Shown: one piece after another, positions 15,832 to 32,857 of the stretch | Layout of the letters: each line of letters starts with the position of its first letter | How positions within the stretch are numbered: position 1 is the stretch's first letter | Sequence record: OR437326.1 | Direction: 5' to 3' (one strand) | DNA: 64,000 nt | From: Escherichia phage iGC_PHA_EC001 | Program-made: the position numbers and the translations under genes | Notes under the pieces: generated by a model | The model's input: only the letters and a program-made list of their open reading frames with translations | Databases searched by the model: none | Told to the model about the DNA's origin: nothing

Positions 15832-16044
15832 TTAATCTTCCTCCAGATCAATTTCATTATAACAATGTATACAGAAACCATCATTGTGCATATGTTGTTC
15901 ATAAGACATATCTTTACCACAAGACCAACAACGGATATCCCCATCGTCCCATTCACGTTCTTCTTCGCCTTCAAATTCATCTGGTAGGTAAGGCATACCA
16001 AAATAATCTAAATCGTAACTCATATCTTCTCCTACCGAGTCCAC
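15832..16044 (-). CDS. Small acidic zinc-ribbon protein
   Basis: CWSCG..x18..CIHC four-Cys arrangement; acidic termini. Confidence 0.3.
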   Translation of the reverse strand: MDSVGEDMSYDLDYFGMPYLPDEFEGEEEREWDDGDIRCWSCGKDMSYEQHMHNDGFCIHCYNEIDLEED

Positions 16045-16622
16045 TCCTTACGTTGTTCAATATGTTCAAGCATATCGTTATACAATGTTTTAAGATGTGG
16101 AACAACTCTTTGATCTTCTGTTTCAAAAAACTTTGTAAGCTGTTCTGCTTTAGCTTTCAACCAACAAAGATGTGCCTCAAGTTCAGTATCAAAACGTCCG
16201 AGCGTTATAATACGACCATCTACTTTTATATGGGCTTTATATTTCTTACGATCTTTTTCGTAATAGAAGCCTACCATAGTGCCATGAGATCTTTTACTTA
16301 CCCTGTAAGCTAAAAACTTGTTAAGATCCCCTGTTACTAAAAGGCAGGTGGCGGGAGAGTAAACTCTCCCTCCTATGATATCTTTATCGAGTTCTAAGTT
16401 TTCCCAGTTATCCCAAGTTTTCAACCAAGTATAGAAGTTGGAAAACAGTTTCCATTCTTCACAGACCGTCACTCCATGATAACAAGGATCACGTTCTTGT
16501 TGGCAAGGGGAGTAACATCTCCCCAACATAGCCATCCATTTCATATAAGCAGGATGAGTTCCATGTTTATCCTTCACCACAATATGTCCATCGAAAACAC
16601 CAACACCATATACTGTTCGCAT
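16032..16622 (-). CDS. AP2-like DNA-binding protein (homing-endonuclease-associated type)
   Basis: YMKWMAMLGRCYSP..YHGVTVCEEW and MVGFYYEKDRKKYKAHIKVDGRIITLGRFDTELEAHLCW resemble phage DNA-binding modules of AP2 type. Confidence 0.35.
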   Translation of the reverse strand: MRTVYGVGVFDGHIVVKDKHGTHPAYMKWMAMLGRCYSPCQQERDPCYHGVTVCEEWKLFSNFYTWLKTWDNWENLELDKDIIGGRVYSPATCLLVTGDLNKFLAYRVSKRSHGTMVGFYYEKDRKKYKAHIKVDGRIITLGRFDTELEAHLCWLKAKAEQLTKFFETEDQRVVPHLKTLYNDMLEHIEQRKEWTR

Positions 16623-16648: not shown

Positions 16649-19600
16649 TCAATGACATGTGGCCCAAGAGTTACCCACATCATATCCGGCAGTAAGCTGA
16701 ACGTTAAGATTGTAAAATTCTCCAGCCTTAGTAACAGCTAAAGCAGCAAGTTCTCCTGCCCGACTATAAGCTGTAAACCATCCACCTTTGGGAGATTCAT
16801 GAATGTTAGCCCAAATTTGTCCCGTTTCTTTTTCCTTATTATGCTTCCATTCTTCAACTTTAGCAAGGCATTCTTTATCAATTTTCTTTTGTTCTTCGGG
16901 ATCGTCTACTTTCTTCCAACCTAATGATTCAGGTGAAAACCATTTAAATTCTACAAGGTTACGAGAAACTTCAAGCTGGGCTTCATCGTGATATGCAATC
17001 ATTTGTTGCACGAAATCTTTATTCTTCCAGTCATCTTTAAAGAAGTCAACACTTAGTCCTTCTTCTTCGATCATGTCGTCATAAATAACCATTGCACGTT
17101 TAGCACAGATAACCCCACCACTTTGGAACAGAGAGTTAAGAATCGCGTGAGCAGAACGAGTAGGAACCTTACGACCGTCAATACCCAAAACATATTGTTT
17201 ACCAGTCTTAACCCAAAAATCGTTTAAACGTTCTTTAAGACGCGCCAATGGGAATGCAGCTTCCCAGAAAGCATCAAACACCAATTGACCTGTAAACTTA
17301 TCGCTACCAATTGTTTTAGCAACCTTGTCGGCTTGTGCACCATAGGTAATACCATACTTAACAGATTTAGCAGGACTACGTTCAAATTTACGTCCAATAG
17401 TTTCAGTAATACGTTTTGCCATCATTGTGTGAACATCATTAGGTTTCTCTAACAACAGAGCGTTACAATACTCGTGTGGCTCCGGCTCGTACCGCCAACA
17501 GTTTCCTGTGATGGTAATGCAGTCTTTCTGACGCATGACCCACGTACCAAGTTCTGTTTGTGGACACCAAACATCCTCTACACCCCACTCTTCAATAGTC
17601 AAACTTTGAACAGGAATGTGAGAGCGGTTAGTCAATGTTGCCACTTTTACTTTCTGCTCTTTTGTATTGAAAGCTACAGAGATATTGCCTCCATGCACCA
17701 GGTACGAGGCAGTTAAAGCTGCTTCAAAAAGTTCACCTGGGTTCTGCGCCCAACGCCAAACAGGTTTTTGTTTATGTTCGTGCCAGTAACCATCTGCAAT
17801 CAAGAAACCTTCCAAGAAAGCTACACGCTCGGCATGAGACATATTAACTACACGTTCTACCCACGGAACATCCCATTTACCTTGTTGAACAGAAGTTAAA
17901 CTATTTACCTGATCTTGTTCCATGTTAAATGGAGCATTACAAATAATGTTATCTCCTGTGCAAAGCTCGGCAGTTGTTCTGACTTTAGGCACATAAGTAT
18001 TCCCTTTACTACGGGTATTAACATACCAACGGTGATCTGCTGTTGCACGGTAAGTGTGTGATTTCCCTTTAATCTCAAACGTCTTACTATTTTTATAGAA
18101 GACCTTACCTTTTACTTTAGTCCATTCTTTCAGACCTGTTTCAGCATTGTACCCTAAAATCTCATCCCCTTCCTTCAGGTCGTGATATCCTACCCAACCT
18201 TTACGAGTCAAAGCTTGAGCATCCATCGGCACACAGTAGTGTGATTCAATTTTTGCTTCCAAAGAGTCGAAGTCGTAGCCGATCTGGAAGTATTTAGGAA
18301 CCTCTACACCAAACAAGTTACGCATCTCCCACCCAAACAAAGATGTGACACGAGGAATATTAGCTACAGATCTATGCTTCATACGAGAGGTTGCAGCATC
18401 ACATGTAGCGGCTGGGGTAGGAATACGCCCATCCGCCCTTACTGCGGCTAAGAAACCTTTATCGTATTCTTGATCTTCTTCATCTTCTTCCCAATCAGCA
18501 CCGCCACCTAAAATAGAGTTCCTACGATGCTTATACGTTAAGTATTCTACAATCTGTGTAGCATAAGGAAACTTCTCACTCAAAGCTTGCAGGTTAGGAC
18601 AAATTTCTTTTTCCTGACCTTTGGTAAAACACGGGTTAGTCAATACTTTAAGACCGCGACCTTTACCTTTTGCTATACGCTCTTGAATCTTCCTTTCCAG
18701 GGTTTCCGGTGTGCACTCCAGATGATCACAACGATCCTGACAAAAATTAGAAGATAGAGTTTGCTCAACGTAAGCTCGGATACCTTTCTGAAGTTCTTCC
18801 TCGCTCTTTTTAATCTTGGTGCCAGATTTAAGAGTCAAGTCTTTATCTTTATATTCAGACGGTACCCAACCTAATCCTACAAGCCAGTTTTTAATATGGG
18901 TTGTATCGTTTAATGTTGCAGGAATGTTAGGATCACATAGAGGTTCATCTGCTGCAACTGGCAGTTTCCACTCTTTCCCCAACATAACTAACCACCAATC
19001 GCCATCCCTCTCTTCCAAATGACCATCATGTTTCTTAGCAAAATTGATCATATGGTTAGTTGGCTCTAAGTTCTTTTTAATTTGCAACTTAGGTGGAATA
19101 AAAGCCTTAAGATAACCTTTTGTTGCTGGTTTAGGTGGCAAAATAGGCTCAACGAGTAAACGAAGACGCTCCATTTCTGCATCCAAAAAAGCAAGGTTCT
19201 CTTCTGCTTGTTTCATGTTAAAAGCAAACCCACGGTGTTCCTGGCGTGTAATAATGTCTGCTACACGTTGTTCAAGTTCAAATGGACCTTCCCATTTATC
19301 ATAATCACCCCATTCTTCCATAAGGTAATTATATACACTTGTATTGGCTTTGTTGTCATAGATACAGTAATAAAGCATATCCGCAGCAAAAGTCTTAAAT
19401 CGATCTTCTTCTGGAATCTCTTTACGGAAATCTATTTTTACATCACCACCTGCTTTTCGAGAAAGTGCTGCCAAACTATGTCCTGATTTGCCCTCAATCT
19501 TTCGATCTGGGTTTAACACTTTACTCAAAATCAAGGAGTCAATAAGTTTTACCTTATTTTTGCCCCACGTATTATATTTAACACTGTAATCTAATCCATA

Positions 19601-19981
19601 AAACAGTTTTGTAGCCAACCAGTCGTAGTTGATACCGTTGTGAGCCACAGCCATTTCAACCAGATATTCAGGCTTGTCTTTAAAATAACCTTCATGATTA
19701 ATAAAATCTGGGAAATCTTTTAGTTGAAAATGTGTGTAATCTTGCGCCACATACTCTTTAAGAACATATGTGTATTTACCATCTGACTCTTCATAAGGAC
19801 GCCCATCAAAGATGTATTTAGGGCCATCGTGGAAAGCTACTATTTCTCCTGTTTCATGGTTCTCTAAGACAATACAGTGCATTTGAAATGTGTCTTTGAG
19901 ACGATAAGGACTAGCTAAATAATCAATAGTGTCATTATTCAACAATCCGTTTGCTTCAATATCCCATGTAAACTTACTCAC
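16649..19981 (-). CDS. DNA polymerase, family A, with 3'-5' exonuclease domain and an intein insertion
   Basis: Exo I WDIEANGL, Exo II HNGINYDWL, Exo III YYCIYDN; motif A DFDSLEAKIESHY; motif B RSPAKSVKYGITYG; about 245 extra aa between motifs A and B. Confidence 0.85.
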   Translation of the reverse strand: MSKFTWDIEANGLLNNDTIDYLASPYRLKDTFQMHCIVLENHETGEIVAFHDGPKYIFDGRPYEESDGKYTYVLKEYVAQDYTHFQLKDFPDFINHEGYFKDKPEYLVEMAVAHNGINYDWLATKLFYGLDYSVKYNTWGKNKVKLIDSLILSKVLNPDRKIEGKSGHSLAALSRKAGGDVKIDFRKEIPEEDRFKTFAADMLYYCIYDNKANTSVYNYLMEEWGDYDKWEGPFELEQRVADIITRQEHRGFAFNMKQAEENLAFLDAEMERLRLLVEPILPPKPATKGYLKAFIPPKLQIKKNLEPTNHMINFAKKHDGHLEERDGDWWLVMLGKEWKLPVAADEPLCDPNIPATLNDTTHIKNWLVGLGWVPSEYKDKDLTLKSGTKIKKSEEELQKGIRAYVEQTLSSNFCQDRCDHLECTPETLERKIQERIAKGKGRGLKVLTNPCFTKGQEKEICPNLQALSEKFPYATQIVEYLTYKHRRNSILGGGADWEEDEEDQEYDKGFLAAVRADGRIPTPAATCDAATSRMKHRSVANIPRVTSLFGWEMRNLFGVEVPKYFQIGYDFDSLEAKIESHYCVPMDAQALTRKGWVGYHDLKEGDEILGYNAETGLKEWTKVKGKVFYKNSKTFEIKGKSHTYRATADHRWYVNTRSKGNTYVPKVRTTAELCTGDNIICNAPFNMEQDQVNSLTSVQQGKWDVPWVERVVNMSHAERVAFLEGFLIADGYWHEHKQKPVWRWAQNPGELFEAALTASYLVHGGNISVAFNTKEQKVKVATLTNRSHIPVQSLTIEEWGVEDVWCPQTELGTWVMRQKDCITITGNCWRYEPEPHEYCNALLLEKPNDVHTMMAKRITETIGRKFERSPAKSVKYGITYGAQADKVAKTIGSDKFTGQLVFDAFWEAAFPLARLKERLNDFWVKTGKQYVLGIDGRKVPTRSAHAILNSLFQSGGVICAKRAMVIYDDMIEEEGLSVDFFKDDWKNKDFVQQMIAYHDEAQLEVSRNLVEFKWFSPESLGWKKVDDPEEQKKIDKECLAKVEEWKHNKEKETGQIWANIHESPKGGWFTAYSRAGELAALAVTKAGEFYNLNVQLTAGYDVGNSWATCH
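17501..18235 (-). mobile_element. Intein with LAGLIDADG homing-endonuclease domain, inside the DNA polymerase
   Basis: Starts at Cys583 right after motif A (CVPMDAQAL, then GDEIL); block B TADHRW; AELCTGDNII; LAGLIDADG-like FLEGFLIADGYW; ends ITGN followed by Cys (aa 583-827). Confidence 0.55.
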
Positions 19982-20775
19982 TATTCCTCCTTTCTAATGT
20001 TCTCCAGAACCCACTGAAGTTCTTTTAAACTTAAACTTCTTACTCCCGCAGTTTTACTAGCTTCAGCTTTAAGTAACGGGTAAGCCTCAATGATACGCGT
20101 TTTAAGATCAGAAGTCAAGGCTTTTAAAAAGTAGGTAGATGCTTCAGATAAAGAATCTTCTTCTGATAACACTTTACCTGCACTTGCTCCCGCTCTCCTA
20201 ACGGCTATATCGTAGTCTTTACTGTTACCTAATACGAACAGTTGATTCTCTCCTAAAACAACGGGAGAACGCTTCTCGTTGCGTTTAATCCATATCTGGA
20301 ATACACAAGGAACATCCCAAGGTTCTCCATGAAGAATAAAAGATCCTTTTGGACATTCTTCTTCGTAAAGAAGATGCATGTGGGGATTTAGTTTGTGTGC
20401 AAAAAAGATTTTTTGAAATGTGCGAGGCAAGATAAAACAAATACCACCTTCGTTATCCAACATTTCAGCACAATGGTTAAAGAACTTAATGGCAAGACTA
20501 GCATTTTTTCCAAACGGAGGATTACCGACAAAAGCAGTTACACTACCAACAGACTCAACAGATTGAGCTAAAAAATCTGCCTCAATACAATCTTCAAACT
20601 TAGGGTCAATATCAAAAGAAGTTATGTTTTTAAAACAAGAAGAGAAAGCCCCTTCTCCCGCAGATGGTTCTACGTAGTTAGCTTCCTCTCCAAAAATTTC
20701 TTTGATCTTATCACATAAGAACCCCGCATAAGCGGGGTTAGTGTAATATTGATCAAGTGTGTTCAACTTGCTCAA
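19981..20775 (-). CDS. DNA N6-adenine methyltransferase
   Basis: DQYYTNP, SAM-binding VEPSAGEGAF, catalytic GNPPFG (NPPF). Confidence 0.7.
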   Translation of the reverse strand: MSKLNTLDQYYTNPAYAGFLCDKIKEIFGEEANYVEPSAGEGAFSSCFKNITSFDIDPKFEDCIEADFLAQSVESVGSVTAFVGNPPFGKNASLAIKFFNHCAEMLDNEGGICFILPRTFQKIFFAHKLNPHMHLLYEEECPKGSFILHGEPWDVPCVFQIWIKRNEKRSPVVLGENQLFVLGNSKDYDIAVRRAGASAGKVLSEEDSLSEASTYFLKALTSDLKTRIIEAYPLLKAEASKTAGVRSLSLKELQWVLENIRKEE

Positions 20776-20784
20776 TAGTCCTCC

Positions 20785-21216
20785 TTAGTTGTTAGCGAAC
20801 TCAATAGTGAGGTCAACTTTACCATCGTCAGAAATAACCATGTTTTTGGTATTTTTAAAGATGATATCTACTTTACCTTCACTTACACGACAGAATGCAA
20901 CACCATCTGCAACTTTATCGATATAATATTTGTAAGAAAGAATACCCACTTTACTACGACCAGCACCTTTTGTGAAAGAAGGGTTTACATCGAAACGGAA
21001 ACCTTTAGAAGAAACAACACGGTAAGAACGTCCAGTTGGAAGATGTTCAATAACAGAGACATTATTCTCAACAACTTTTACAGCAAACTCTTCAGGATGA
21101 TCCTCAACAATCACATGTGGGATGGCAAATGCCAACGCTTGTTTGTGTTTAATAACACCAGCACCCAGAGCACCAGCAGCTTTAACTTTTGCATTCAGAT
21201 CGATTGTCATACGCAT
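20785..21216 (-). CDS. Hypothetical protein
   Basis: 143-aa ORF between methyltransferase and primase-helicase. Confidence 0.35.
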   Translation of the reverse strand: MRMTIDLNAKVKAAGALGAGVIKHKQALAFAIPHVIVEDHPEEFAVKVVENNVSVIEHLPTGRSYRVVSSKGFRFDVNPSFTKGAGRSKVGILSYKYYIDKVADGVAFCRVSEGKVDIIFKNTKNMVISDDGKVDLTIEFANN

Positions 21217-21308
21217 TTTTACTTCTCCTCTTGTTTGGTTGATGAGACAAGTATAAGTCCCTTCCGTAAAGTTGTCAACAGGTATTTTTAATAAAAGGGC
21301 CGAAGCCC

Positions 21309-23087
21309 TTAATAGTTGCTATCCGTAGGCAAATTAGCAGGATTGTTGAAATACTGCTCTTTGTCATGCAGAGTTGCAGTTCTAATGTCATAGTAAAACT
21401 GCCCTGCCGGACCAGTTTCCGAGAACTCACGGTTTTTTAGGATAAAGCAATGAGTCGTATTGCGTTCTACAGGGTCTTCAGCGGCTTTATCTCGTTCCAA
21501 AGCTAAGGTAATACCAGCACCTTTAGCCAAGAAACTACTACCCATTGCATCGTCCTCTGTTAAGTGTTCATTGCCACCATTAGCCGATTTCTTAACGTGC
21601 GAGATGACGATAATAGTTATAGCATACTCTTTCATGATGCGCTTCAACCATGTTGCTAACTCTTCCTGGGCTTGAACATCCATACCAGAAAGCAAATCAG
21701 AATAAGGGTCGATAACAAGAATTGTTACTCCAAAATAGATGATCATCTCCAAAACTTTTTCTTTGATAGACTCCACATCTGCTCCACGATCATCACACAC
21801 ATAAAAACGTGGTGATCCATCTTCTCTTTCGTAAAAATCTAGGATTTTTTCTTTATTCTCTTCCAAGATTTGAAATTTCTCTTCCGGTGTTTTCCTGTGT
21901 AGAGGAATATGCAGGAACGAGGACAACAGGTTACGAGAATATTTCTTATAAGTTGCTTCCAAGGACAGAATACCTAGGGTATGTTCTGGGTGCGCAACAA
22001 TAATATGTTTGGTGATCTCGTTCACCATCAAAGTTTTACCGATACTGGTCTTTGCCAGGATGACTGTAATCTCTTCCTCTACTAAACCACCACCCAGCAT
22101 ATTTGCAGCAACACGCATAAAAGGAGGCAAGGTAATCATCTTGGATTCCAAGCATTCTAATGCAGCTTCATACAAGACATTAGAAGCATAAACACCTGCT
22201 GGGGTGTATAGACGAGCACTCCAAAAAGCTTTTACGAAATCTTTTGCACGACCTTCTTCCAGATACTGATTGGCATCCTTAAGATCCATCTGCATACGGT
22301 AGACTTTGTTACGAGGTAGCACCTTAACAATATTTTCAAATGCCTCATTACCTGCTTTGTCATTATCCATGCAAACAATAATCTTCTTAAATTTTTCAAA
22401 GAAAGGATATTGTGCCTGAACTTGTTTATACATACTGGTTTCACCAGTTGTGCCACTAACTACTGCTGGAAGTTCATATTTGTTGTCCAAGTTTTCAGAC
22501 AGCATTTGATAAGCTGCCAGAGCATCGTGTTCACCACCTGTAATTACCACAGTATGAGAACGGTCTGCAAAACGAATTTGTCCAAAAAGATCTACATCTT
22601 TACCTACTTGACCAATAGGTTTACTGAAATCTTTAGGATGAATACGACGCTTAAAACCAACCAATTCTTTACCGATGGTAGTTGGATATAAACAACTTTC
22701 TACTACCATCTGATCCCCTTCCTGACGGTATTCATAACGCACACCATAGAAAGATGAAACTTTTTCTTTAATGCCTCGATAACCACGTGGGTTGGTTGAT
22801 GTTTCTTGAACAATTTTACGATGAATCTGTTTATTAAATTCCGAACCCACAATCTCCTCCTCTTCTTCTAAAACTTCACCATTTTCTCGTAACCATTCTA
22901 CGCTAGGAATAGTGTATTCACACGCAAAGCACTTAGCACCTTTATGCTCTCCATTAGAATCTAATCCATAAACCATCAGGTTATTACGAGAGCGATCCTT
23001 GCCATTTTTCATGCAGCGCGGACAACCTGTATGCCCTTCCTTGCTAAGATCAACATCAAATCCATATTTAGTTATAATGTGCGACAC
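21309..23087 (-). CDS. Bifunctional DNA primase/helicase (T7 gp4-like)
   Basis: N-terminal Cys4 zinc ribbon (CPRC..CFAC); C-terminal helicase P-loop ILAKTSIGKT; 592 aa. Confidence 0.8.
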   Translation of the reverse strand: MSHIITKYGFDVDLSKEGHTGCPRCMKNGKDRSRNNLMVYGLDSNGEHKGAKCFACEYTIPSVEWLRENGEVLEEEEEIVGSEFNKQIHRKIVQETSTNPRGYRGIKEKVSSFYGVRYEYRQEGDQMVVESCLYPTTIGKELVGFKRRIHPKDFSKPIGQVGKDVDLFGQIRFADRSHTVVITGGEHDALAAYQMLSENLDNKYELPAVVSGTTGETSMYKQVQAQYPFFEKFKKIIVCMDNDKAGNEAFENIVKVLPRNKVYRMQMDLKDANQYLEEGRAKDFVKAFWSARLYTPAGVYASNVLYEAALECLESKMITLPPFMRVAANMLGGGLVEEEITVILAKTSIGKTLMVNEITKHIIVAHPEHTLGILSLEATYKKYSRNLLSSFLHIPLHRKTPEEKFQILEENKEKILDFYEREDGSPRFYVCDDRGADVESIKEKVLEMIIYFGVTILVIDPYSDLLSGMDVQAQEELATWLKRIMKEYAITIIVISHVKKSANGGNEHLTEDDAMGSSFLAKGAGITLALERDKAAEDPVERNTTHCFILKNREFSETGPAGQFYYDIRTATLHDKEQYFNNPANLPTDSNY

Positions 23088-23099
23088 TTTGTTCTCCTG

Positions 23100-23378
23100 T
23101 TAAAATGGTTCGTTAGTCTCCATCATATATTCTGCTTCTAGTTCTTCCATATGCTTTCTAAATTGGAAAGCAATTTCTGCTACAGTTACATTTAAATCTT
23201 TTTCAAAAACTTCTGTAGAGCCTTCATAAAAACGAATACCGTCAATTAAAAGCCCTCCGTGGTAATCCCAATCACTTTCACGAGAAAGCGGGTTAGGCTC
23301 TTCATAATAGTAATCCACCTCCACAACTAAGGCTTTCCCGTTACGAGTGGTGTATTCAAAATCAAAAGTGTTAATCAT
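23100..23378 (-). CDS. Hypothetical protein
   Basis: 92-aa ORF abutting neighbours. Confidence 0.3.
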   Translation of the reverse strand: MINTFDFEYTTRNGKALVVEVDYYYEEPNPLSRESDWDYHGGLLIDGIRFYEGSTEVFEKDLNVTVAEIAFQFRKHMEELEAEYMMETNEPF

Positions 23379-24322
23379 TATAGCTCCTCAAATAAAAGTC
23401 TACGACGCTCATTCAACACATCAATGTGATAATGAGTCCTGACATACTTAGCTAATGCTAATCCTTTCTCCATGCAAACATCGGGAGCACTTAATAAGTA
23501 TTCCGTAATATCTTTCCACTCGGAAGGTGTTTCAGCAAAGAATAACAAATCTTTAAACTCTTGTGGATGATAATTCTCACGAGGAGAACAGATCAAAGGT
23601 AAACCCTTAGCACCTGCCTCAAGAATTTTAAGATTGCTTTTTGCATTATTAAACACGTTATCAATCAATGGCGCAAGACTGATTTGATGACCATCGTAAG
23701 ATTCCATGTAGTTGGCATATGGTCTTACACCTTCATAAACACAAGTTGGTGCTACATTTTCTCTGATCACAGACCATTCACGACTACTTAAAACTTCAGA
23801 ATCCCTACGAAAACCACATATTGTAAGATCTTTACCAAAATCGGGCAAGATAGCCAAATCTTGTTTATGTGTTTCACTTCCAGCCCAGACTAATGGAGTT
23901 TTGGAGTAGCGATCACGGGTCAACACAAATTGACCTTCATCGTAAGGAAGTCCATTAGGGATTATGTGCACATTATCATTGTATTGTGAAAGTTCAACTT
24001 GCAAAGCAGGTGTCGTAGTTGTAACAAGATCGCTGTGCTCTAAAAACCATTTTAAATGTTCACGAATACCTGATTCAAAAATACCTTCTAGCATGTGTCC
24101 TTTTGGAATAACTAAAGAGTCATCCAAATCCATAACCATTTTAAAACCTAGGTTTTTAAGGGCTAAAAAGCCCTCTTTACCTTTTGTTGGCACCCCGTTA
24201 AAAACGAAAACGTTGTGTTTAGGTTGTGAAGAGAACTGCCTTGAGTAAGGCAGCACTACCCTATGGAAATCGCAGACACTATAATTGATTCCGTTACGAT
24301 TGTCAAGAATTATTTGTCCCAT
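23378..24322 (-). CDS. Glycosyltransferase, GT-B fold (GT4-like)
   Basis: C-terminal NLKILEAGAKGLPLICS resembles the GT4 E-x-F-G..LEAMA-x-G-x-P-VI motif; paralog of the next gene. Confidence 0.45.
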   Translation of the reverse strand: MGQIILDNRNGINYSVCDFHRVVLPYSRQFSSQPKHNVFVFNGVPTKGKEGFLALKNLGFKMVMDLDDSLVIPKGHMLEGIFESGIREHLKWFLEHSDLVTTTTPALQVELSQYNDNVHIIPNGLPYDEGQFVLTRDRYSKTPLVWAGSETHKQDLAILPDFGKDLTICGFRRDSEVLSSREWSVIRENVAPTCVYEGVRPYANYMESYDGHQISLAPLIDNVFNNAKSNLKILEAGAKGLPLICSPRENYHPQEFKDLLFFAETPSEWKDITEYLLSAPDVCMEKGLALAKYVRTHYHIDVLNERRRLLFEEL

Positions 24323-24329
24323 ACTTCAC

Positions 24330-25277
24330 CTACAAACTTTCAATAACCTGGCGTCGCAACTCGTTTGCATCTGCCAGATTATAATGTGTTCGAACATGTT
24401 CAGCCAAGAACAAGCCACGATCTTCCCGATAGTTTGGATTGCGAAGAAGCTTAACAATTTCGTAATGCCATTCTGCTTTATTCTCTGCGTAAGCAACAGC
24501 GCGAGCATCTACAGGGTTAAAATAAGGTAATACCTTAGAACAAACAATTGGAATACCTTTTGCTCCAGCTTCCAGGATTTTGAGATTACTTTTACAATTA
24601 TTAAAATCGTTATCTACCAAAGGAGCTATAGCAATAGCATGACTTTCGTAAACACTCATGTAATTATCTAAATCTTTTACAGCGGCTTTATATTTGGCAT
24701 TTGGTAAATTTCTGCGAATCTTAATCCACTCTTGTCCCGTGATGCTTTGTGATGCTTCATATCCCGCAATAGTAAGAAGTTCATCATCGAAAGTATTAGA
24801 GACTAATCGTAAATCTGGTTCGTGACTAGCACCGCCAGCCCATACAACAGGGGTACCGGATGAACGATCATTTGACAAAGTGAATTGTCCGCTATCAAAA
24901 GGAAGTGCATTTCGGATCACAACGACATTTCTATTTAAGTGACGGATCTTATATGCCAAATATTCTGTAGTCACAATAACCACATCAGCAAGCTTAACCA
25001 TAGCTACAATAGCATGAGTGTTTGACTCGTATAGACTTGCTAAATAATGCTCTGGATTAAGTTGGTAAAAATCATCTAAATCTACAACAACCTTAACACC
25101 TTGACGTTTCAAAGATAAAACGTATTCTGCACCTTTAGAGTGGATACGGTTAAACACAACAATATCTTTCTTAGGTTGAAAATTATTGTTGTTAAATGGC
25201 ATAACAATACGATGATAGTCACAACCGCTATGAGGTTTTGCATCAATTTTTAGTTTAGACCATTTTTTATTTGACAT
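24330..25277 (-). CDS. Glycosyltransferase, GT-B fold (paralog of 23378..24322)
   Basis: NLKILEAGAKGIPIVCS; alignable with neighbour; start set at ATG 25277 (AGGAGG upstream) rather than overlapping 25316. Confidence 0.45.
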   Translation of the reverse strand: MSNKKWSKLKIDAKPHSGCDYHRIVMPFNNNNFQPKKDIVVFNRIHSKGAEYVLSLKRQGVKVVVDLDDFYQLNPEHYLASLYESNTHAIVAMVKLADVVIVTTEYLAYKIRHLNRNVVVIRNALPFDSGQFTLSNDRSSGTPVVWAGGASHEPDLRLVSNTFDDELLTIAGYEASQSITGQEWIKIRRNLPNAKYKAAVKDLDNYMSVYESHAIAIAPLVDNDFNNCKSNLKILEAGAKGIPIVCSKVLPYFNPVDARAVAYAENKAEWHYEIVKLLRNPNYREDRGLFLAEHVRTHYNLADANELRRQVIESL

Positions 25278-25950
25278 GTGCCAGTGCCTCCTCATAGGAA
25301 ATTCGGATTTTCCCATTTTTAATATCCTCTAAAGATGCTTTATATTCTTCCCAGTTAATCCCGATAGCAGCTTCTTTCTCTTCTTTTGTCAGATTAGCAA
25401 AAGGCATAGGGTTGTTTCCAAAAACATCGTCTGGGTGGATATAAGCCATGATACGAAGTGGACAAGGTGTTGCCTGAATACCATGATTCAAACCAGCAGC
25501 TTGCAAACGGTGTCCCCATTCAGCATCTTCAAAACCATAGCCGTGAGTGTAAGGACGGAAATAACCCATCTTCTCAACAACGGCACGAGAATACATTGCA
25601 AATTGACACATTGCAAGTTCCCAGAGAATAACTTCTCCTTTGCTTCCAACAACTTTATCTTTGAAATACTCCGGCATACCAAAGAAATCCCATCCTCCAG
25701 AGACAGCTTGATCTACAAAGTATGTTTCCCATCCCTCCATGACTGGGTAGCAATCGTCGTCAAAAATAAACCAATAATCATAACCTTCTTCATAAAACTG
25801 GTGCATAAGTTCATTCCTGGCATAAGCTACACCTTTACGATCTGGATCGTTGAATACTCGAAAATCTGCACGTGGATCTGTTACAAGGTAGTCTTTAAGT
25901 GGACGGACACCTACAGTGATAACACCCACTCCAATTTTAATATTTTCCAT
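25267..25950 (-). CDS. Glycosyltransferase-like protein (GT-A/DxD type)
   Basis: GVAYARNELM and FDDDCYP acidic motif; YGFEDAEWGHR. Confidence 0.35.
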   Translation of the reverse strand: MENIKIGVGVITVGVRPLKDYLVTDPRADFRVFNDPDRKGVAYARNELMHQFYEEGYDYWFIFDDDCYPVMEGWETYFVDQAVSGGWDFFGMPEYFKDKVVGSKGEVILWELAMCQFAMYSRAVVEKMGYFRPYTHGYGFEDAEWGHRLQAAGLNHGIQATPCPLRIMAYIHPDDVFGNNPMPFANLTKEEKEAAIGINWEEYKASLEDIKNGKIRISYEEALAHVK

Positions 25951-25958
25951 TTTCTCTC

Positions 25959-26522
25959 CTAAATAGTTTTACTGTGATCATGACAGTGTAATAAATGATG
26001 TATAGACCGTTGAGGATTTGTTTGACCTAATCTGTAAATGTGAAACAGATACATTCCCCGCATCAATCCTAACCTCTTTCCTTTTTCATGTAAAGTGCGA
26101 GAGAAAATTAAGTCGAATTGGATAGATTTTTCTTCGAAAGGAATTTCATTCCACAATGATTTTCTAAAAAGCAAGAAGAAACCTGCCAGAGGTGTTCCGA
26201 AAGGAACTTCTTCAACACTCACTTTATGATATTCTCTTGCAATCTTAGCATATTCTATATGGTTTAGAATATCTGGATCATCATTAATTTGGTTAGAGAA
26301 AAGCTGATAACCACTGCCTAACCTGTTACAAGTTGCACCTATTACATCAAAAGGCGGGTTTGACATAACAAGCTCTTCAAGCATAGATGGTTGATCAGGT
26401 AGGAGGAACATTGTATCGGTATCTCTTAAACACACCCAACTATCATCTGGAAGAACGGCAATGGCTTCATTGATAGCCTTGCCGATATTTCCTGTCAGAT
26501 AGGGAGTAATATAATAAATCAT
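25959..26522 (-). CDS. Glycosyltransferase-like protein (tentative)
   Basis: CLRDTDTMFL acidic D-x-D-like motif; fourth member of the contiguous cluster. Confidence 0.25.
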   Translation of the reverse strand: MIYYITPYLTGNIGKAINEAIAVLPDDSWVCLRDTDTMFLLPDQPSMLEELVMSNPPFDVIGATCNRLGSGYQLFSNQINDDPDILNHIEYAKIAREYHKVSVEEVPFGTPLAGFFLLFRKSLWNEIPFEEKSIQFDLIFSRTLHEKGKRLGLMRGMYLFHIYRLGQTNPQRSIHHLLHCHDHSKTI

Positions 26523-27224: not shown

Positions 27225-27746
27225 TTAACTCCCCTTTGGTAGATAGAAACCATGCACTTTATCTCGATAAACAAGACGCATATCACGTTCCCAGTGTGTC
27301 CTTATATTCCGTTTCTTGAAGTATAGAGCACCTTTAGTAACATCTAAAACAGACCGCAATTCAGGAAAATGTTTCTCTAAATAAAGTAAACGCTCCGCTA
27401 TTGCTTTTGCTTCCTGCCACTTATCTTTCTCTGTTACGTTAAAAGTTTTCGCATATGAGAATTGTCCTTTCTGGAACAAGACTCCTCTGACTGTGTTAGG
27501 GAAGTAGGTATCATTTCTTCTGTTGATTACCACATTCCCAACGGCATTCATTCCTTTTTTACCCAGACCGCGACCTTCTGCGTAAATTGCACAAGCTAAT
27601 AGAATTTTATCATTATATTGCTTTGTACATTTGTGAACTACTTTAGCGGTTTTTACGTTTGCAGCTTCGGCTTTCGCCACAACAGGTGTAAATGTAAAAG
27701 CAGTTAAGGATAGTAACGCAACTGTTACAAAGTTTTTTATCAGCAA
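27225..27746 (-). CDS. Cell-wall hydrolase, SleB/Hydrolase_2-like, with signal peptide
   Basis: N-terminal LLSLTAFTFTPVVAKA; AIYAEGRGLGKKGMNAVGNVVINRRND..FPNTVRGVLFQKGQFS matches the SleB-type motif; TTG start 7 nt after AAGGAGG. Confidence 0.55.
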   Translation of the reverse strand: MLIKNFVTVALLSLTAFTFTPVVAKAEAANVKTAKVVHKCTKQYNDKILLACAIYAEGRGLGKKGMNAVGNVVINRRNDTYFPNTVRGVLFQKGQFSYAKTFNVTEKDKWQEAKAIAERLLYLEKHFPELRSVLDVTKGALYFKKRNIRTHWERDMRLVYRDKVHGFYLPKGS

Positions 27747-27845: not shown

Positions 27846-28448
27846 TTATGGACATTCATACCATTCTTTTTTACCACCGAAGGCCATCACCACATCACAA
27901 ATATCCAGACCAGCTTTACCTACACCATATGCTTTCAGCTTCCATTCCCCATCTTCACGAACCAAGGAAGCCACGTGGCAGATTGTGTTGCCAGCTACTT
28001 CAGGAGCCAGGAAGTCAAAATCCAGAATTTCCACATTGCGCTCGGAGTCGAAGATTTTAAGCATACCTTCAGAAGCATGACCAAAACGTTTCAGACCTGT
28101 ATCATCATCAATGGTCAGAACAAAGGCAATCTCTTGTGCATCAGGAGAGATTTTAGCCAGAGTAATATCAATCTGCTCCATGCTGCCAGTTCCATCACGA
28201 ACATCGTCACCAGCGAAGGTAGAACGTTCAGGATCAAACTTGTTAGCATAGCAAACCAGATGACGTGCAGACAGCATTTCAGGATTACCAGCGGCATTGT
28301 GACGACAAACCAGTGCACTTACATCCAGATCCAGTTTAGAATCAGATTTCCAAGAGAATTCCAGGCGCAGTTCTTTCAGAGCCGGAGCAACTTTCTTCAG
28401 GGAAATTTTTTCGCTAGAGCCTTTTTTCAGGGAAATTTTATCAGTCAT
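27846..28448 (-). CDS. terD: TerD-family protein
   Basis: ISLKKGSSEKISLKK, DLDVSALVC and GEWKLKAYGVGKAGLDICDV match the TerD fold (E. coli TerD SLSKGGNVSLSK / DLDASAFLL / GEWKFRAVGQGYAGGLASVC). Confidence 0.8.
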   Translation of the reverse strand: MTDKISLKKGSSEKISLKKVAPALKELRLEFSWKSDSKLDLDVSALVCRHNAAGNPEMLSARHLVCYANKFDPERSTFAGDDVRDGTGSMEQIDITLAKISPDAQEIAFVLTIDDDTGLKRFGHASEGMLKIFDSERNVEILDFDFLAPEVAGNTICHVASLVREDGEWKLKAYGVGKAGLDICDVVMAFGGKKEWYECP

Positions 28449-28463
28449 CTTTTGTCTCCTCTA

Positions 28464-28733
28464 TTATTTAAGTGTAATACCAGTTACAGTCAATTCTACT
28501 TCCAAAAGCTTAGATGTGTTTTGGATTGATACTAATTGTGCATGATGGTTTAGTTCTACAGCAGAATAATCATTTTCCCCATCATCTACTTTTAAATAAA
28601 CAATGATTTCACTAAGGTCTAAACCATTTTCGTCAAATGCATTTTCATAGACGAAAGTATCTCCTACATCCAAATCTTTAATGGTAAGGCATCGTTTATT
28701 TACTTTTTGCTCATCAATTTCGAAGTTTAACAC
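28464..28733 (-). CDS. Hypothetical small protein (paralog of 29755..30033)
   Basis: Shares L-x-I-x-DLDVG-x-TF-x-Y..A..E-x-GLD and a C-terminal VEL-x-VT-x-ITLK motif with its paralog. Confidence 0.35.
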   Translation of the reverse strand: MLNFEIDEQKVNKRCLTIKDLDVGDTFVYENAFDENGLDLSEIIVYLKVDDGENDYSAVELNHHAQLVSIQNTSKLLEVELTVTGITLK

Positions 28734-28962
28734 TTCTTCCTCCTAATGTTATCTCCGGTTTGTATATACGAAGAATTATAGCATTTTCATTTTCTTTGTC
28801 AACCCATTCTTCATAATCGGGCCATACATGAATCTCTACTCTACTTACAATATCTTCCATTCGCACAGTCCCAATGAAATACTCTTTGAGACTGCGCATA
28901 ATGAAAGCTTCTCTCTCGCGCCAATAATTTTCTATGACTTGAGAGGCAAGCTCGTCGATCAT
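28714..28962 (-). CDS. Hypothetical protein
   Basis: 82-aa ORF overlapping both neighbours by a few codons. Confidence 0.3.
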   Translation of the reverse strand: MIDELASQVIENYWREREAFIMRSLKEYFIGTVRMEDIVSRVEIHVWPDYEEWVDKENENAIILRIYKPEITLGGRSVKLRN

Positions 28963-29753
28963 TTTTTAGCACCCACTTTAACAACCCACTCTCCGAACTC
29001 TTCAGATAAGAGTTTGTCATAAAGCTCTGAATCTGTCAAGTCTAAATCTTTAATGCCAATAAAACCAACATTATCATAAGCATTTGCCAGTTCTTTCAGG
29101 AAGCCAAACTTCTCATTACCAACGCCAACCATGAACCAATAAATAGGTTTATTCTTATTCTCTTCGATAAGACGACGAACAGCACTAGGATCACCATTCT
29201 CACCATCCGTCTGGAAGAATACAACACTAGGGGTAACGTCAGCACCTGGTTCAGATACAGCTACAACTTTTTCACGCTCTACAGACACTGTTTCAGTTTT
29301 ACCAAGCAGACGATTAAAGAAGCCTTTCTTTGGAGCCTCCTCTTGTACCACTTGTTTAGTGGTAATATATTTAGTAACAGTGCCAAAATACTCATCGTAG
29401 ATATCCGCCATTACAGGGGCGTAATTTGTTCCACCTCCGATACGAACATTACGCATACATTTACCAACATAGTCATCGTAAACATCTGCTGTTGCTGGAG
29501 TAAGCTCTTGGGAACTCGTATTGAAGGCCCACATATCAATTTGTTGATTATCGTCGAACAGCATACCAAAAGGAAGCAGTTTACCTACAAAATCACTCAC
29601 TACCCCACTAGAATATAGACCATGCATACTACCAGAAATATCTAGAGCACATGCTACACGAAGAACAATCTTACCTTCATTCAGGTTCTTATTCTTTTTC
29701 AGAGAGAAAGCAAGGTTTTCTTGACGTTTTTTCAGGCTGATTTTCTCGGACAT
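28959..29753 (-). CDS. von Willebrand factor A domain protein, TerF/TerY-like
   Basis: MIDAS motif ALDISGSM; N-terminal EKISLKK shared with the TerD gene; 264 aa. Confidence 0.65.
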   Translation of the reverse strand: MSEKISLKKRQENLAFSLKKNKNLNEGKIVLRVACALDISGSMHGLYSSGVVSDFVGKLLPFGMLFDDNQQIDMWAFNTSSQELTPATADVYDDYVGKCMRNVRIGGGTNYAPVMADIYDEYFGTVTKYITTKQVVQEEAPKKGFFNRLLGKTETVSVEREKVVAVSEPGADVTPSVVFFQTDGENGDPSAVRRLIEENKNKPIYWFMVGVGNEKFGFLKELANAYDNVGFIGIKDLDLTDSELYDKLLSEEFGEWVVKVGAKK

Positions 29754-29754
29754 A

Positions 29755-30033
29755 TTATTTCTCCTTTTTAAGTGTAATATTGGTAACTTCTAAATCTACT
29801 TCCACCATATTTGTATCTGGTGGGATGCAATGAGTATAGCCTCGTTGTGCTAGTGATCCATTAATACAAATCGCACTGTTTGTGGAATTTTTAATGAACA
29901 CCAAGTTACGGTAGGTATCCAACCCTGCGTCTTCATAGGCATCATAATACATGAATGTTGCCCCTACGTCAAGATCTTCGAAAGCAATAGGTAAATCTTG
30001 ACTTTTTTCTTCTTGAATATTGAATCTAAACAC
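29755..30033 (-). CDS. Hypothetical small protein (paralog of 28464..28733)
   Basis: Start placed at GTG 30033 (GAGGAGG 5 nt upstream) to match the paralog's length; the listed 30099 start overlaps the upstream gene by 74 nt. Confidence 0.35.
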   Translation of the reverse strand: MFRFNIQEEKSQDLPIAFEDLDVGATFMYYDAYEDAGLDTYRNLVFIKNSTNSAICINGSLAQRGYTHCIPPDTNMVEVDLEVTNITLKKEK

Positions 30034-30589
30034 GCATACCTCCTCTACCAATTTTGAAGCCCAAATCGTAAGCTTCCTTAGTGATCTTTTGTAACTCACT
30101 TATAGGAAGTGTTACAAGAGGATCATCTTCTTCAATTTCCATCTTGTCATCTTCTGTTTCAATGAGAGTATTATGCACTTTGTGATAAGGGTTGTCAACA
30201 CGTTTAAACTTATTCTTTTCTGTGCTGAAAAAACAATCTGGATCTTCTTCACCATCACCCCAACCTTGGTTAGGATCTCCGTCAGATTGTTCTGTAGGGA
30301 TTTCACCTGTAAAGTACTCTTCCAGCACCATAGCGATACCGTCCCTTGGATTTGAGGAATGCATCAAATCACAAACCTTACTCCAATCCATAGCCCATTC
30401 AAATCGTTCACGAACGCCGTTTTCATCCTCCTTTCCAGAGAAAACACAACCATAACTATCATAGTTGCCATACATCTCTTCAATAACAACACCGTCCTTC
30501 AAAAGAAAAAGATAACAAGGTGATCCGTCGAAAGAAGTAGAAAGGGCAGCTTTGCCCGATTCTTTGCACAAAAAGCTAAAACAACCCAT
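30026..30589 (-). CDS. Hypothetical acidic protein
   Basis: 187-aa ORF in operon. Confidence 0.3.
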   Translation of the reverse strand: MGCFSFLCKESGKAALSTSFDGSPCYLFLLKDGVVIEEMYGNYDSYGCVFSGKEDENGVRERFEWAMDWSKVCDLMHSSNPRDGIAMVLEEYFTGEIPTEQSDGDPNQGWGDGEEDPDCFFSTEKNKFKRVDNPYHKVHNTLIETEDDKMEIEEDDPLVTLPISELQKITKEAYDLGFKIGRGGMRV

Positions 30590-30792: not shown

Positions 30793-30957
30793 CTTCTTCC
30801 TCCTCTAAAATATGGAACCCGTAATTACAATAATCCTGAAAGGTTTCGTGCGCAAGATCTTCTATATCCTCTTGAGACATATCATCTTCAATTTCGATAT
30901 CCACAACCTCATTGCATCCACACCAAGCAGTTTCAATATTCACTCGTAATATTTTCA

Positions 30958-32854: not shown

Positions 32855-32857
32855 AAC

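What the first reader, a model, noticed from the sequence alone, without database searches (positions are those of the whole stretch)
19981..26522. Four contiguous glycosyltransferase-like genes plus an adenine methyltransferase within the replication module
Two paralogous GT-B-fold enzymes and two GT-A-like proteins sit directly downstream of the primase-helicase, and an N6-adenine methyltransferase lies between polymerase and primase. In phages, glycosyltransferases in a replication cluster often glycosylate modified bases in DNA as anti-restriction; alternatively they modify host surface polysaccharide. No hydroxymethylase or other base-modifying enzyme is visible in this window, so the substrate is unresolved.
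Basis: inference. Interest (0 to 1): 0.5.

Follow-up and report, generated by a model that had tools for sequence, protein, structure and literature searches.

The report
Phage four-enzyme sugar-attachment gene cassette
A well-known type of E. coli phage carries four sugar-transferring enzymes next to its DNA-replication genes; the evidence argues against sugar-coating of its DNA and points instead, without proof, to a rhamnose-containing sugar coat on the virus particle's own proteins.

Summary
The window is a Phapecoctavirus (phAPEC8-like coliphage, 99% identical). On the minus strand lie four tightly packed soluble glycosyltransferase genes: two GT-A (25959-26522, 25267-25950) and two 41%-identical GT-B paralogs (24330-25316, 23378-24322). 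They sit upstream, not downstream, of the primase/helicase. An amino-methyltransferase (19981-20775) lies in a separate promoter unit and is absent at this position in phage PaulScherrer.

The DNA-glycosylation reading is disfavoured:
- No dCMP/dUMP hydroxymethylase homolog turned up; the only thymidylate-synthase-like gene is ThyX-type.
- 19 of 59 six-base palindromes are depleted more than 4-fold, against 0 of 38 in T4.
- Phages with the same cassette (BASEL Bas60) are reported as exceptionally restriction-sensitive.

Nearly identical genomes encode a complete dTDP-L-rhamnose pathway outside the window. In smaller phages and prophages, relatives of these enzymes almost always sit beside portal, capsid or terminase genes, often with extra GT2 enzymes and sugar-type methyltransferases. 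None was seen in a bacterial polysaccharide locus.

Best reading (about 0.45): a phage-specific glycan-building cassette that decorates virion proteins, as in mycobacteriophages. Rivals are host envelope glycans, another cytoplasmic target, and DNA. The acceptor is untested.

The parts
25959..26522 (-). GT_187: a minimal 187-aa GT-A (GT2-like) glycosyltransferase and first gene of the cassette. It has an invariant D34-x-D36 and an AGFFLLFRK motif.
   Evidence: PHROG phrog_14179, E 8.5e-113. No Pfam hit of its own. A profile search finds 980 representative clusters. In homologs the matching domain overlaps Pfam Glycos_transf_2 or Glyco_tranf_2_3, and it is often fused to a TOD1_MUCI70 GT-like domain. 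Invariant residues are listed.
25267..25950 (-). GTA_227: a 227-aa GT-A-fold glycosyltransferase with an invariant F63-D64-D65-D66 and a YGFED motif.
24330..25316 (-). GT-B paralog 2 (328-aa ORF). The true start is probably an internal ATG, since phAPEC8 annotates 316 aa. This is the copy closest to the single GT-B of smaller phages and prophages.
   Evidence: PHROG phrog_7162, E 6.5e-149. It is 50% identical to the Serratia prophage GT-B and 42-44% identical to the Pseudomonas prophage GT-Bs. The KSNLKILEAGAKG motif is at residues 242-256.
23378..24322 (-). GT-B paralog 1 (314 aa), 41% identical to paralog 2.
23100..23378 (-). A 92-aa acidic protein (pI 4.2) of unknown function. It always lies between the GT-B gene and the primase/helicase in Stephanstirmvirinae-like loci. 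Whether it belongs to the GT unit is uncertain.
   Evidence: phrog_4240, E 6.4e-33. An 85-89-aa gene occupies the same position in L006, L007, L009 and L010. No homolog was detected beside the GTs in L004 or L005.
21309..23087 (-). Primase/helicase. It is the downstream neighbour in the same gap-free gene string and is not a glycosylation component.
   Evidence: Pfam DnaB_C 2.3e-15 and Toprim_2 3.6e-09; phrog_239 E 2.4e-164.
21250..21278 (-). A sigma-70-like promoter (TTGACA, 17-nt spacer, TATACT). It separates the GT/primase string from the unit made of the 143-aa ORF, the MTase and the polymerase.
   Evidence: 11 of 12 consensus positions match, in the only sizeable intergenic gap. phAPEC8 annotates a host-dependent promoter at the equivalent place.
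19981..20775 (-). A 264-aa amino-methyltransferase (probably N6-adenine), with motif I EPSAGEGAF (aa 36-44) and motif IV NPPF (aa 85-88). It is a neighbour and is not linked to the GTs.
   Evidence: phrog_5172 E 3.2e-110 (function unknown) and phrog_799 'DNA methyltransferase' E 1.1e-10. Pfam Eco57I scores only 15.6 bits, below its cutoff. The gene is absent at this position in PaulScherrer.

Best explanation
The four genes form a phage-specific, cytoplasmic glycan-building cassette: two inverting-type GT-A enzymes and two GT4-like GT-B enzymes, all soluble. They probably add up to four sugars in sequence to one acceptor. At least one donor is probably dTDP-L-rhamnose, made by the phage's own RmlABCD genes, which lie elsewhere in the genome.

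The most likely acceptor is one or more of the phage's own virion proteins. That would give the particle a glycan coat, as shown for mycobacteriophages.

Shown here:
- The folds and catalytic motifs of the four enzymes.
- That the cassette is a conserved unit.
- That the Rml pathway is present in near-identical genomes.
- That relatives of the cassette live in head and packaging modules of other phages.
- That the DNA bears the marks of an unprotected genome.

Inferred:
- The acceptor.
- The use of rhamnose by these particular enzymes.
- The order of the reactions.

For: 2. A portable unit.
- The same order, GT_187 then GTA_227 then GT-B, recurs in a Serratia prophage between the lysis genes and terS.
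- The GTA_227 + GT-B pair recurs in Pseudomonas prophages and in a 45-kb phage contig between TerL and portal.
- Related large phages have 2, 3 or 4 of the GTs at the same spot. One has an NDP-sugar epimerase/dehydratase fused into the string.

3. Sugar supply.
- phAPEC8 RmlA, B, C and D all exceed their TIGRFAM equivalog cutoffs.
- RmlC is 100% identical in ASO2A, the closest relative of the window.
- GT-B (140 phage records) and RmlC (129 records at 60% identity or more) cover the same genera.
- ESCO37 has lost rmlA and rmlB but keeps rmlC and rmlD. From my own knowledge, E. coli's ECA pathway should still supply the dTDP-4-keto-6-deoxyglucose precursor, so rhamnose could still be made.

4. 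Context of distant relatives.
- Of 16 non-redundant IMG/VR loci outside this phage group, 14 have portal, capsid or TerL within 7 kb, and 9 have the portal within 1.6 kb.
- The commonest neighbour families are Phage_portal, Phage_capsid, terminase, Mu F, additional GT2, and FkbM / Methyltransf_23 / Methyltransf_24 methyltransferases.
- Individual loci show capsid-MT-MT-GT, portal-MT-GT-MuF and tape-measure-GT-GT arrangements.
- The GT-B relatives examined in bacterial genomes (13 of 23 loci) mostly lie beside phage packaging genes such as terS, TerL or portal, with TylF and hexapeptide-transferase genes nearby.

5. Precedent. Virion glycosylation by phage-encoded GTs is established in mycobacteriophages (Freeman 2023, cited in PMC12582341).
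Against: - No virion glycoprotein has been reported for Phapecoctavirus or Justusliebigvirus in the papers I could search.
- In this phage the cassette lies in the early/middle replication region, not the structural module.
- The distant relatives share only the GT domain. Their acceptors could differ.
- No obvious Ser/Thr-rich acceptor tail was found in the phAPEC8 capsid, decoration, sheath or tube proteins.
- The link between the Rml genes and these GTs is co-occurrence only. The two sets lie about 70 kb apart.
- DNA methyltransferases also sit near packaging genes, so that location alone does not rule out a DNA target.
Confidence: 0.45

Rival explanations
1. Remodelling of host envelope glycans. 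The soluble GTs would extend a host lipid-linked intermediate, such as Und-PP-GlcNAc or the lipid A-core, with rhamnose-containing sugars. That would mask the LPS-core or ECA/NGR receptors, excluding superinfection or stopping progeny from adsorbing to debris.
For: The gene set (rmlABCD plus two GT2-like and two GT4-like soluble enzymes) resembles an O-unit assembly kit lacking wzx and wzy. Top structural matches include enzymes that act on lipid-linked or wall-polymer acceptors: PglA, PglH, PimA, WaaG, WbnH, TarP, TarS, RmlT and GlfT2. These phages use surface glycans as receptors. Early/middle expression would leave time for envelope change. In the Serratia prophage the trio occupies a classical moron position after the lysis genes.
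Against: No flippase, polymerase, ligase or initiating transferase was seen in the cassette or beside any relative, and there are no membrane segments. In most small phages the relatives are wedged between portal, capsid or tail genes. Such genes are late lytic genes, when remodelling the envelope would achieve little. No homolog was seen in a bacterial polysaccharide locus.
Confidence: 0.18
2. DNA glycosylation. The GTs would attach rhamnose or other sugars to modified bases in phage DNA to block restriction.
Against: No homolog of T4 gp42, a-gt or b-gt exists in phAPEC8 or the window (E > 0.8). The only thymidylate-synthase-like gene is ThyX-type. In phAPEC8, 19 of 59 six-base palindromes are depleted more than 4-fold, against 20 of 3926 non-palindromes, and GTAC occurs 157 times against 451 expected. 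T4 shows 0 of 38. That pattern fits DNA exposed to type II enzymes. Bas60, which carries the same four GTs, belongs to a group reported as exceptionally RM-sensitive. The TAGT match is below threshold and only about 38 aa long, and TAGT ranks 33rd in BFVD. Relatives travel with sugar-type O-methyltransferases, hexapeptide transferases (probable acyltransferases) and aminotransferases, which suit glycan building rather than base modification.
Confidence: 0.08
3. Another cytoplasmic acceptor. The cassette would glycosylate a host protein, an RNA, or a small molecule or metabolite, for example to take over or disarm a host function, or it would make a free oligosaccharide.
For: All four enzymes are soluble and are expressed with early/middle genes. 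GT4-type neighbours include small-molecule glycosyltransferases: sucrose-phosphate synthase, BshA, trehalose synthase and SenB. BASEL annotated the GT-Bs as 'putative disaccharide synthase'. The surrounding region encodes other metabolite-handling enzymes: PRTase_3, HAD, Macro and the Ter proteins.
Against: Nothing points to a specific target. The consistent placement of relatives inside head and tail modules of small phages is hard to explain by a host-takeover role, which would normally be an early function.
Confidence: 0.2

Closest known systems
Mycobacteriophage virion glycosylation cassettes (Che8, Corndog, Myrna; Freeman et al. 2023, Cell Host Microbe)
   Same: Both are sets of phage-encoded soluble glycosyltransferases, and both kinds of phage are candidates for therapy. 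Relatives of the present enzymes sit next to capsid and portal genes and travel with methyltransferases; from memory, Corndog has the same layout.
   Different: The host is Gram-negative and the phage is a large myovirus. Here the cassette lies in the replication region. The phage brings its own dTDP-rhamnose pathway. No sequence relationship to the mycobacteriophage enzymes was tested. Virion glycosylation has not been demonstrated for this group.
T-even DNA glucosyltransferases (T4 a-gt, GT72, and b-gt, GT63; T2/T6 beta-glucosyl-HMC alpha-glucosyltransferase) and TET-associated glycosyltransferases (TAGT)
   Different: There is no hydroxymethylase, dCTPase or TET partner. Sequence similarity to a-gt and b-gt is absent. 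The genome shows restriction-site avoidance, and related phages are RM-sensitive.
Enterobacterial O-antigen unit assembly genes (rmlBDAC plus GT2 and GT4 transferases such as WbbL and WbbK)
   Same: The enzyme repertoire is the same: a dTDP-L-rhamnose pathway plus soluble GT2-like and GT4-like transferases.
   Different: There is no wzx, wzy, wzz or initiating transferase. The GT families are phage- or prophage-restricted in everything sampled. The Rml genes lie about 70 kb from the GTs.
Glycan machinery of giant viruses and chloroviruses (PBCV-1 A64R, Mimivirus R699 and similar)
   Different: They are eukaryotic viruses, and only the generic GT-A fold is shared.

Membership tests
GT-B fold glycosyltransferase, GT4-like (Pfam Glycos_transf_1 clan) | Two Rossmann-like domains with an interdomain cleft, and structural superposition on solved GT-B enzymes | tested here: met
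GT-B fold glycosyltransferase, GT4-like (Pfam Glycos_transf_1 clan) | A Pfam family score above the gathering threshold | tested here: inconclusive
   GTB1 scores 25.1 bits on Glyco_trans_1_2 against a cutoff of 25. GTB2 scores 22.6 and 20.7 bits, below the cutoffs. Several homologs do carry precomputed PF13524, PF13692 or PF00534 hits.
GT-B fold glycosyltransferase, GT4-like (Pfam Glycos_transf_1 clan) | The E-x7-E donor-binding motif typical of retaining GT4 enzymes (recalled from memory) | tested here: inconclusive
   Only the second half is recognisable: K228-SNL-K232-IL-E235-AGAKG, with K228, K232 and E235 invariant or nearly so. The residue eight positions before E235 is not Glu. The stereochemical outcome is therefore undetermined.
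GT-A fold glycosyltransferase, GT2-like | A single Rossmann-like GT-A domain that superposes on solved GT2 enzymes | tested here: met
GT-A fold glycosyltransferase, GT2-like | A DxD metal- and nucleotide-sugar-binding motif | tested here: met
   GTA_227 has D64-D65-D66 invariant in 19 sequences. GT_187 has D34 and D36 invariant in 23 sequences.
GT-A fold glycosyltransferase, GT2-like | A sequence-profile match to Pfam GT2-type models | tested here: inconclusive
   The window proteins themselves score below threshold or not at all. In homologs of GT_187 the matching domain overlaps Glycos_transf_2 (P0086, 2.2e-11) or Glyco_tranf_2_3 (P0202, 7.7e-11). The two GT-A families are not detectably related to each other (hhalign probability 0.1).
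Phage DNA-base glycosylation system (T-even type or TET/TAGT type) | A partner enzyme that creates a hydroxylated base: a ThyA-family dCMP/dUMP hydroxymethylase, or TET/JBP plus a C5-MTase | tested here: not met
   No T4 gp42 homolog in phAPEC8 or the window (best tblastn E 1.2). gp156 is ThyX-type (Pfam Thy1 33.3 bits). No such product appears in the RefSeq annotation of the whole genome. TET/JBP was not searched with a dedicated profile.
Phage DNA-base glycosylation system (T-even type or TET/TAGT type) | GT homologous to a known DNA glycosyltransferase | tested here: not met
   a-gt and b-gt give tblastn E > 0.8. TAGT scores 19.5 bits against a cutoff of 27.5, over 37 residues only. TAGT ranks 33rd in BFVD.
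Phage DNA-base glycosylation system (T-even type or TET/TAGT type) | DNA resistant to restriction, and no selection against restriction sites | tested here: not met
   19 of 59 hexamer palindromes are depleted more than 4-fold, against 0 of 38 in T4. Several six-cutter sites are absent altogether. Published data report RM hypersensitivity for phages with the same cassette. Direct chemistry of the virion DNA cannot be tested here.
Phage virion-protein glycosylation cassette (mycobacteriophage type) | Phage-encoded soluble GTs, often with methyltransferases, associated with structural genes | tested here: inconclusive
   Met for relatives: 14 of 16 distant loci have portal, capsid or TerL within 7 kb, and FkbM / Methyltransf_23 / Methyltransf_24 are frequent neighbours. 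Not met for the window itself, where the cassette adjoins the primase/helicase.
Phage virion-protein glycosylation cassette (mycobacteriophage type) | Glycans demonstrably attached to capsid or tail proteins | not testable with these tools
   This needs glycoprotein staining or MS of purified virions. No report was found.
dTDP-L-rhamnose pathway (RmlA, RmlB, RmlC, RmlD), in near-identical genomes outside the window | All four enzymes above their equivalog cutoffs | tested here: met
   phAPEC8: rmlA 464.5 bits (cutoff 360.7), dTDP-glucose 4,6-dehydratase 431.2 (365.1), rmlC 225 (155.8), rmlD 237.1 (224.1). RmlC is 100% identical in ASO2A. The genome the window comes from was not available.
N6-adenine (amino) DNA methyltransferase | SAM-binding motif I and catalytic motif IV (D/N)PP(Y/F) | tested here: met
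   EPSAGEGAF at aa 36-44 and NPPF at aa 85-88. phrog_799 'DNA methyltransferase' E 1.1e-10. Pfam Eco57I is below threshold at 15.6 bits. Target base and target sequence were not determined.

The most novel reading that the evidence does not exclude
Therapeutically used coliphages (Phapecoctavirus and Justusliebigvirus) coat their virions with a rhamnose-containing glycan made entirely by phage enzymes. The small GT_187 family, with about 1000 representative clusters and no Pfam model, marks a widespread and so far unrecognised virion-glycosylation module in the head-gene regions of tailed phages well beyond the actinophages.
Probability: 0.4. Interest if true: 0.65.

Novelty: new variant of a known kind. 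Interest (0 to 1): 0.45.

Why it matters
Phapecoctavirus and Justusliebigvirus phages are frequent isolates and appear in therapeutic cocktails.

If the cassette builds a glycan coat on the particle, it would affect antibody recognition, clearance, stability and perhaps mucus or host adhesion. From memory of Freeman et al. 2023, glycans shield mycobacteriophage virions from antibody recognition. It would also extend virion glycosylation to phages of Gram-negative bacteria.

The negative result is useful too. A published and intuitive guess, rhamnosylated hydroxymethyl bases, is probably wrong. That matters for anyone predicting restriction evasion or sequencing behaviour from gene content.

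The strong link between the GT_187 family and portal and capsid genes gives a concrete, testable handle on a large uncharacterised phage protein family.

Tried and rejected
- Sequence-only searches of the PDB gave nothing significant, either with single proteins or with profiles of the two GT-A families. Fold comparison was needed.
- hhalign of the two GT-A families against each other showed no detectable relationship.
- NCBIfam gave no hit for any of the four GTs or for the MTase.
- I looked for Ser/Thr-rich acceptor tails in the phAPEC8 portal, decoration, capsid, sheath and tube proteins. Only the portal C-terminus is mildly S/T-rich, so no convincing acceptor emerged.
- Isoelectric points as a hint of DNA binding were uninformative. 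The GTs have pI 4.9-8.9, and T4 a-gt at 6.1 and b-gt at 9.05 span the same range.
- Literature searches for experimental evidence on DNA modification or virion glycans in these genera found only speculation and the BASEL restriction phenotypes.
- The papers on phi92, phAPEC8 and mycobacteriophage virion glycosylation are not held in the library.
- A paper reporting no virion glycoprotein stain for ten phages, including coliphage JEP7, could not be used because the taxonomy of JEP7 is not given.
- I rejected the idea that the MTase belongs with the GTs. It has a separate promoter and is absent at this position in PaulScherrer.

Full report
**What the window is.** The interval 19981-26522 is 99.0-99.3% identical over its whole length to Escherichia phages vB_EcoM_ASO2A, Mt1B1_P17, ESCO37, tuntematon and phAPEC8. 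64 phage records cover at least 80% of it. The window is therefore a Phapecoctavirus (Stephanstirmvirinae), a roughly 150-kb virulent E. coli myovirus. By alignment to phAPEC8, the window corresponds to about 86 kb through the genome end. Most nucleotide-metabolism genes of the genome lie outside it.

**Check of the observation.** All genes of the finding are real ORFs on the minus strand. In the direction of transcription the order is:
- GT_187 (25959-26522)
- GTA_227 (25267-25950)
- GT-B paralog 2 (24330-25316)
- GT-B paralog 1 (23378-24322)
- a 92-aa acidic ORF (23100-23378)
- primase/helicase (21309-23087)
- a promoter-like site (21278-21250; 11 of 12 consensus positions)
- a 143-aa ORF (20785-21216)
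- the methyltransferase (19981-20775)
- the family-A DNA polymerase (16649-19981)

So the glycosyltransferases lie upstream of the primase/helicase, not downstream. The methyltransferase belongs to the next transcription unit.

Pfam alone is weak on these proteins. The best GT hit scores 25.1 bits against a cutoff of 25, GT_187 has no hit, and the MTase scores 15.6 bits on Eco57I. The PHROG families match at E 1e-78 to 1e-149 and are named glycosyltransferase. RefSeq already annotates all four as glycosyltransferases.

DxD motifs are invariant in both GT-A families: D64-D66 in GTA_227 and D34/D36 in GT_187. I could not model GT_187. An exhaustive profile search finds 980 representative clusters for it. 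In multidomain members its domain coincides with Pfam Glycos_transf_2 or Glyco_tranf_2_3 hits. It is often fused to a TOD1_MUCI70 GT-like domain or to a methyltransferase.

None of the four proteins has a membrane-spanning segment.

The methyltransferase has motif I EPSAGEGAF and motif IV NPPF, which fits an amino- (probably N6-adenine) methyltransferase. In the Justusliebigvirus phage PaulScherrer the four GTs and the primase/helicase are arranged identically, but no methyltransferase lies between the polymerase and the small ORF. The two features are therefore independent.

**The sugar donor.** Outside the window, phAPEC8 encodes RmlA, RmlB, RmlC and RmlD, each above its TIGRFAM equivalog cutoff. 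RmlC is 100% identical in ASO2A, the closest relative of the window.

GT-B homologs occur in 140 phage records. RmlC homologs of at least 60% identity occur in 129. Both sets cover Phapecoctavirus, Justusliebigvirus, the phiWec179 group and some Klebsiella phages.

In one related 135-kb contig, an NDP-sugar epimerase/dehydratase is inserted directly in front of the GTs.

ESCO37 has lost rmlA and rmlB but keeps rmlC and rmlD. From my own knowledge, every E. coli makes dTDP-4-keto-6-deoxyglucose for enterobacterial common antigen. On that basis RmlC and RmlD would be the minimum needed to obtain rhamnose, which suggests rhamnose is the product that matters. That these particular GTs use dTDP-rhamnose remains an inference from co-occurrence.

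**Why DNA glycosylation is unlikely.** Olsen et al. suggested rhamnosylated hydroxymethyl nucleotides for these genera. Four lines argue against it.
1. No enzyme that could create a hydroxymethyl base was found. T4 gp42 has no homolog in phAPEC8 or the window (best tblastn E 1.2). The annotated thymidylate synthase is ThyX-type (Pfam Thy1 33.3 bits). Nothing of the kind appears in the whole-genome annotation.
2. The GTs show no specific relationship to known DNA glycosyltransferases.
3. The genome carries a strong signature of exposure to type II restriction.
   - GTAC occurs 157 times against 451 expected.
   - TCCGGA, CTGCAG, GGATCC, CCATGG, GCATGC and TGGCCA are absent although 8-29 copies of each are expected.
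   - 19 of 59 hexamer palindromes are depleted more than 4-fold, against 20 of 3926 non-palindromic hexamers.
   - In 50 kb of glucosyl-hmC phage T4 the counts are 0 of 38 and 0 of 2742.
4. [quoted passage not shown] Bas60 PaulScherrer carries the same four-gene cassette.

A rare or site-specific DNA modification is not excluded.

**What the relatives say.** The cassette is portable.
- A Serratia prophage has homologs of GT_187, GTA_227 and GT-B (41%, 34% and 50% identity) in the same order, between its lysis genes and terS.
- A 45-kb phage contig has GT-B and GTA_227 between TerL and portal.
- Pseudomonas prophages keep the GTA_227 + GT-B pair.
- Further individual contexts are portal-methyltransferase-GT-MuF-capsid, tape measure-GT-GT-tail genes, protease/capsid-GT, and capsid-MT-MT-GT.
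- One locus shows a GT-B, GT2, GT_PLOD and DegT aminotransferase cluster after terS.

To go beyond anecdotes, I scanned IMG/VR with the GT_187 profile and found 72 loci. I reduced the distant ones to 17 non-redundant loci and scanned all of their neighbours against Pfam. The commonest neighbour families were:
- Phage_portal (12 proteins)
- Phage_capsid (9)
- large terminase (12)
- additional GT2 (13)
- FkbM, Methyltransf_23 and Methyltransf_24 methyltransferases (12)
- Mu F (5)

NDP-sugar epimerase/dehydratase, DegT, WbqC and RfbT-like proteins also appeared. With ad-hoc profiles, 14 of the 16 loci outside the Stephanstirmvirinae have portal, capsid or TerL within 7 kb, and 9 have the portal within 1.6 kb.

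The scan of bacterial genomes found 23 GT-B relatives, and I examined the neighbourhoods of 13. Most lie beside phage genes such as terS, TerL, portal, NinG or tail proteins, with TylF-type O-methyltransferases and hexapeptide transferases (probable acyltransferases) nearby; one Pseudomonas locus and three remote (25-29% identity) loci were not resolved.

No wzx, wzy or ligase-type family appeared in the lists. Only the 25 commonest families were shown for three of the four scans, so singletons may have been missed.

**Interpretation.** The enzymes are soluble and phage-restricted. In most lineages they are co-located with late morphogenesis genes and with sugar-tailoring enzymes. That pattern fits glycosylation of virion proteins, which is established for mycobacteriophages (Freeman et al. 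2023, cited in PMC12582341).

I take this as the best explanation for the cassette in the window, at about 0.45. The acceptor is not shown. In this phage group the cassette sits with early/middle genes, no virion glycoprotein has been reported, and I found no obvious acceptor sequence.

The rivals are:
- host envelope glycans (0.18), supported by the resemblance to an O-unit kit but weakened by the late-module context and the lack of any membrane component;
- another cytoplasmic acceptor (0.2);
- DNA (0.08).

**Novelty and interest.** The genes, their annotation and the rhamnose pathway are already in databases and papers. The function is not known. What is new here is the evidence against the DNA hypothesis and the systematic link between these GT families and phage head and packaging modules. 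I rate it a new variant of a known kind, phage-encoded glycosylation cassettes, of moderate interest (0.45). It would rise to about 0.65 if a virion glycan coat were demonstrated in these therapeutically used coliphages.

Noticed in passing
window 17501-18235 (minus strand), inside the DNA polymerase gene 16649-19981: The family-A DNA polymerase carries a 245-aa intein-like insertion (aa 583-827). It starts with Cys and ends in Gly-Asn followed by Cys. phAPEC8 lacks the insertion, while the flanks are 99.6-99.8% identical. PaulScherrer annotates an intein of the same length (735 nt) in its polymerase.
   Followed up: partly
window 27846-38338 (minus strand): Just upstream of the GT cassette lies a Ter-type gene set: TerD (27846-28448), vWA-TerF-like (28959-29753), TelA (31155-32267), SprT-like (32264-32854) and TerC (34480-35454). 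It is followed by a Macro domain (35768-36346), a ComF-like PRTase_3 (36255-37082) and a weak, below-threshold HAD-like hit (37075-37731). From memory, this resembles the Ter-associated 'nucleoside-like metabolite' gene neighbourhoods described by Anantharaman, Iyer and Aravind. The synteny with the GT cassette is conserved in related contigs (L007, L010).
   Followed up: partly
whole window and the phAPEC8 genome (L001-L003): Restriction-site avoidance is extreme. GTAC is at 35% of expectation, and GGCC, CCGG and CTAG are strongly depleted. Six hexamer palindromes are absent altogether: TCCGGA, CTGCAG, GGATCC, CCATGG, GCATGC and TGGCCA. GATC is not depleted (687 observed against 685 expected).
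   Followed up: yes
window 27225-27746 (minus strand): A SleB-type cell-wall hydrolase (Pfam Hydrolase_2, 64 bits) has what looks by eye like an N-terminal signal peptide. phAPEC8 annotates it as the endolysin. It lies in the same string as the Ter genes and the GT cassette, not with the spanin genes.
   Followed up: no
window 16032-16622 (minus strand): A 196-aa ORF just after the polymerase gene has no counterpart in the phAPEC8 annotation of this region and no Pfam hit. It may be a strain-specific insertion.
   Followed up: no
L005 16754-17359 (45.8-kb metagenomic phage contig carrying GT-B and GTA_227 homologs): A gene with an Nmad5 ('nucleotide modification associated domain 5') hit lies about 6 kb from the GT pair, inside the structural module. 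It is the only hint of a nucleotide-modification link found in any relative.
   Followed up: no
phage ESCO37 (OM386659), 99.2% identical to the window interval: According to its authors, this phage lacks rmlA and rmlB. My tblastn shows that it keeps rmlC and the reductase. The phage-borne first half of the rhamnose pathway therefore looks dispensable.
   Followed up: partly
phAPEC8 45712-47328 (L001; outside the window): The 'thymidylate synthase' is a divergent 332-aa ThyX-type protein (Pfam Thy1 33 bits; TIGR02170 31 bits against a cutoff of 88). Next to it is an NT5C-like 5'-deoxynucleotidase. The pairing is unusual for a coliphage.
   Followed up: partly
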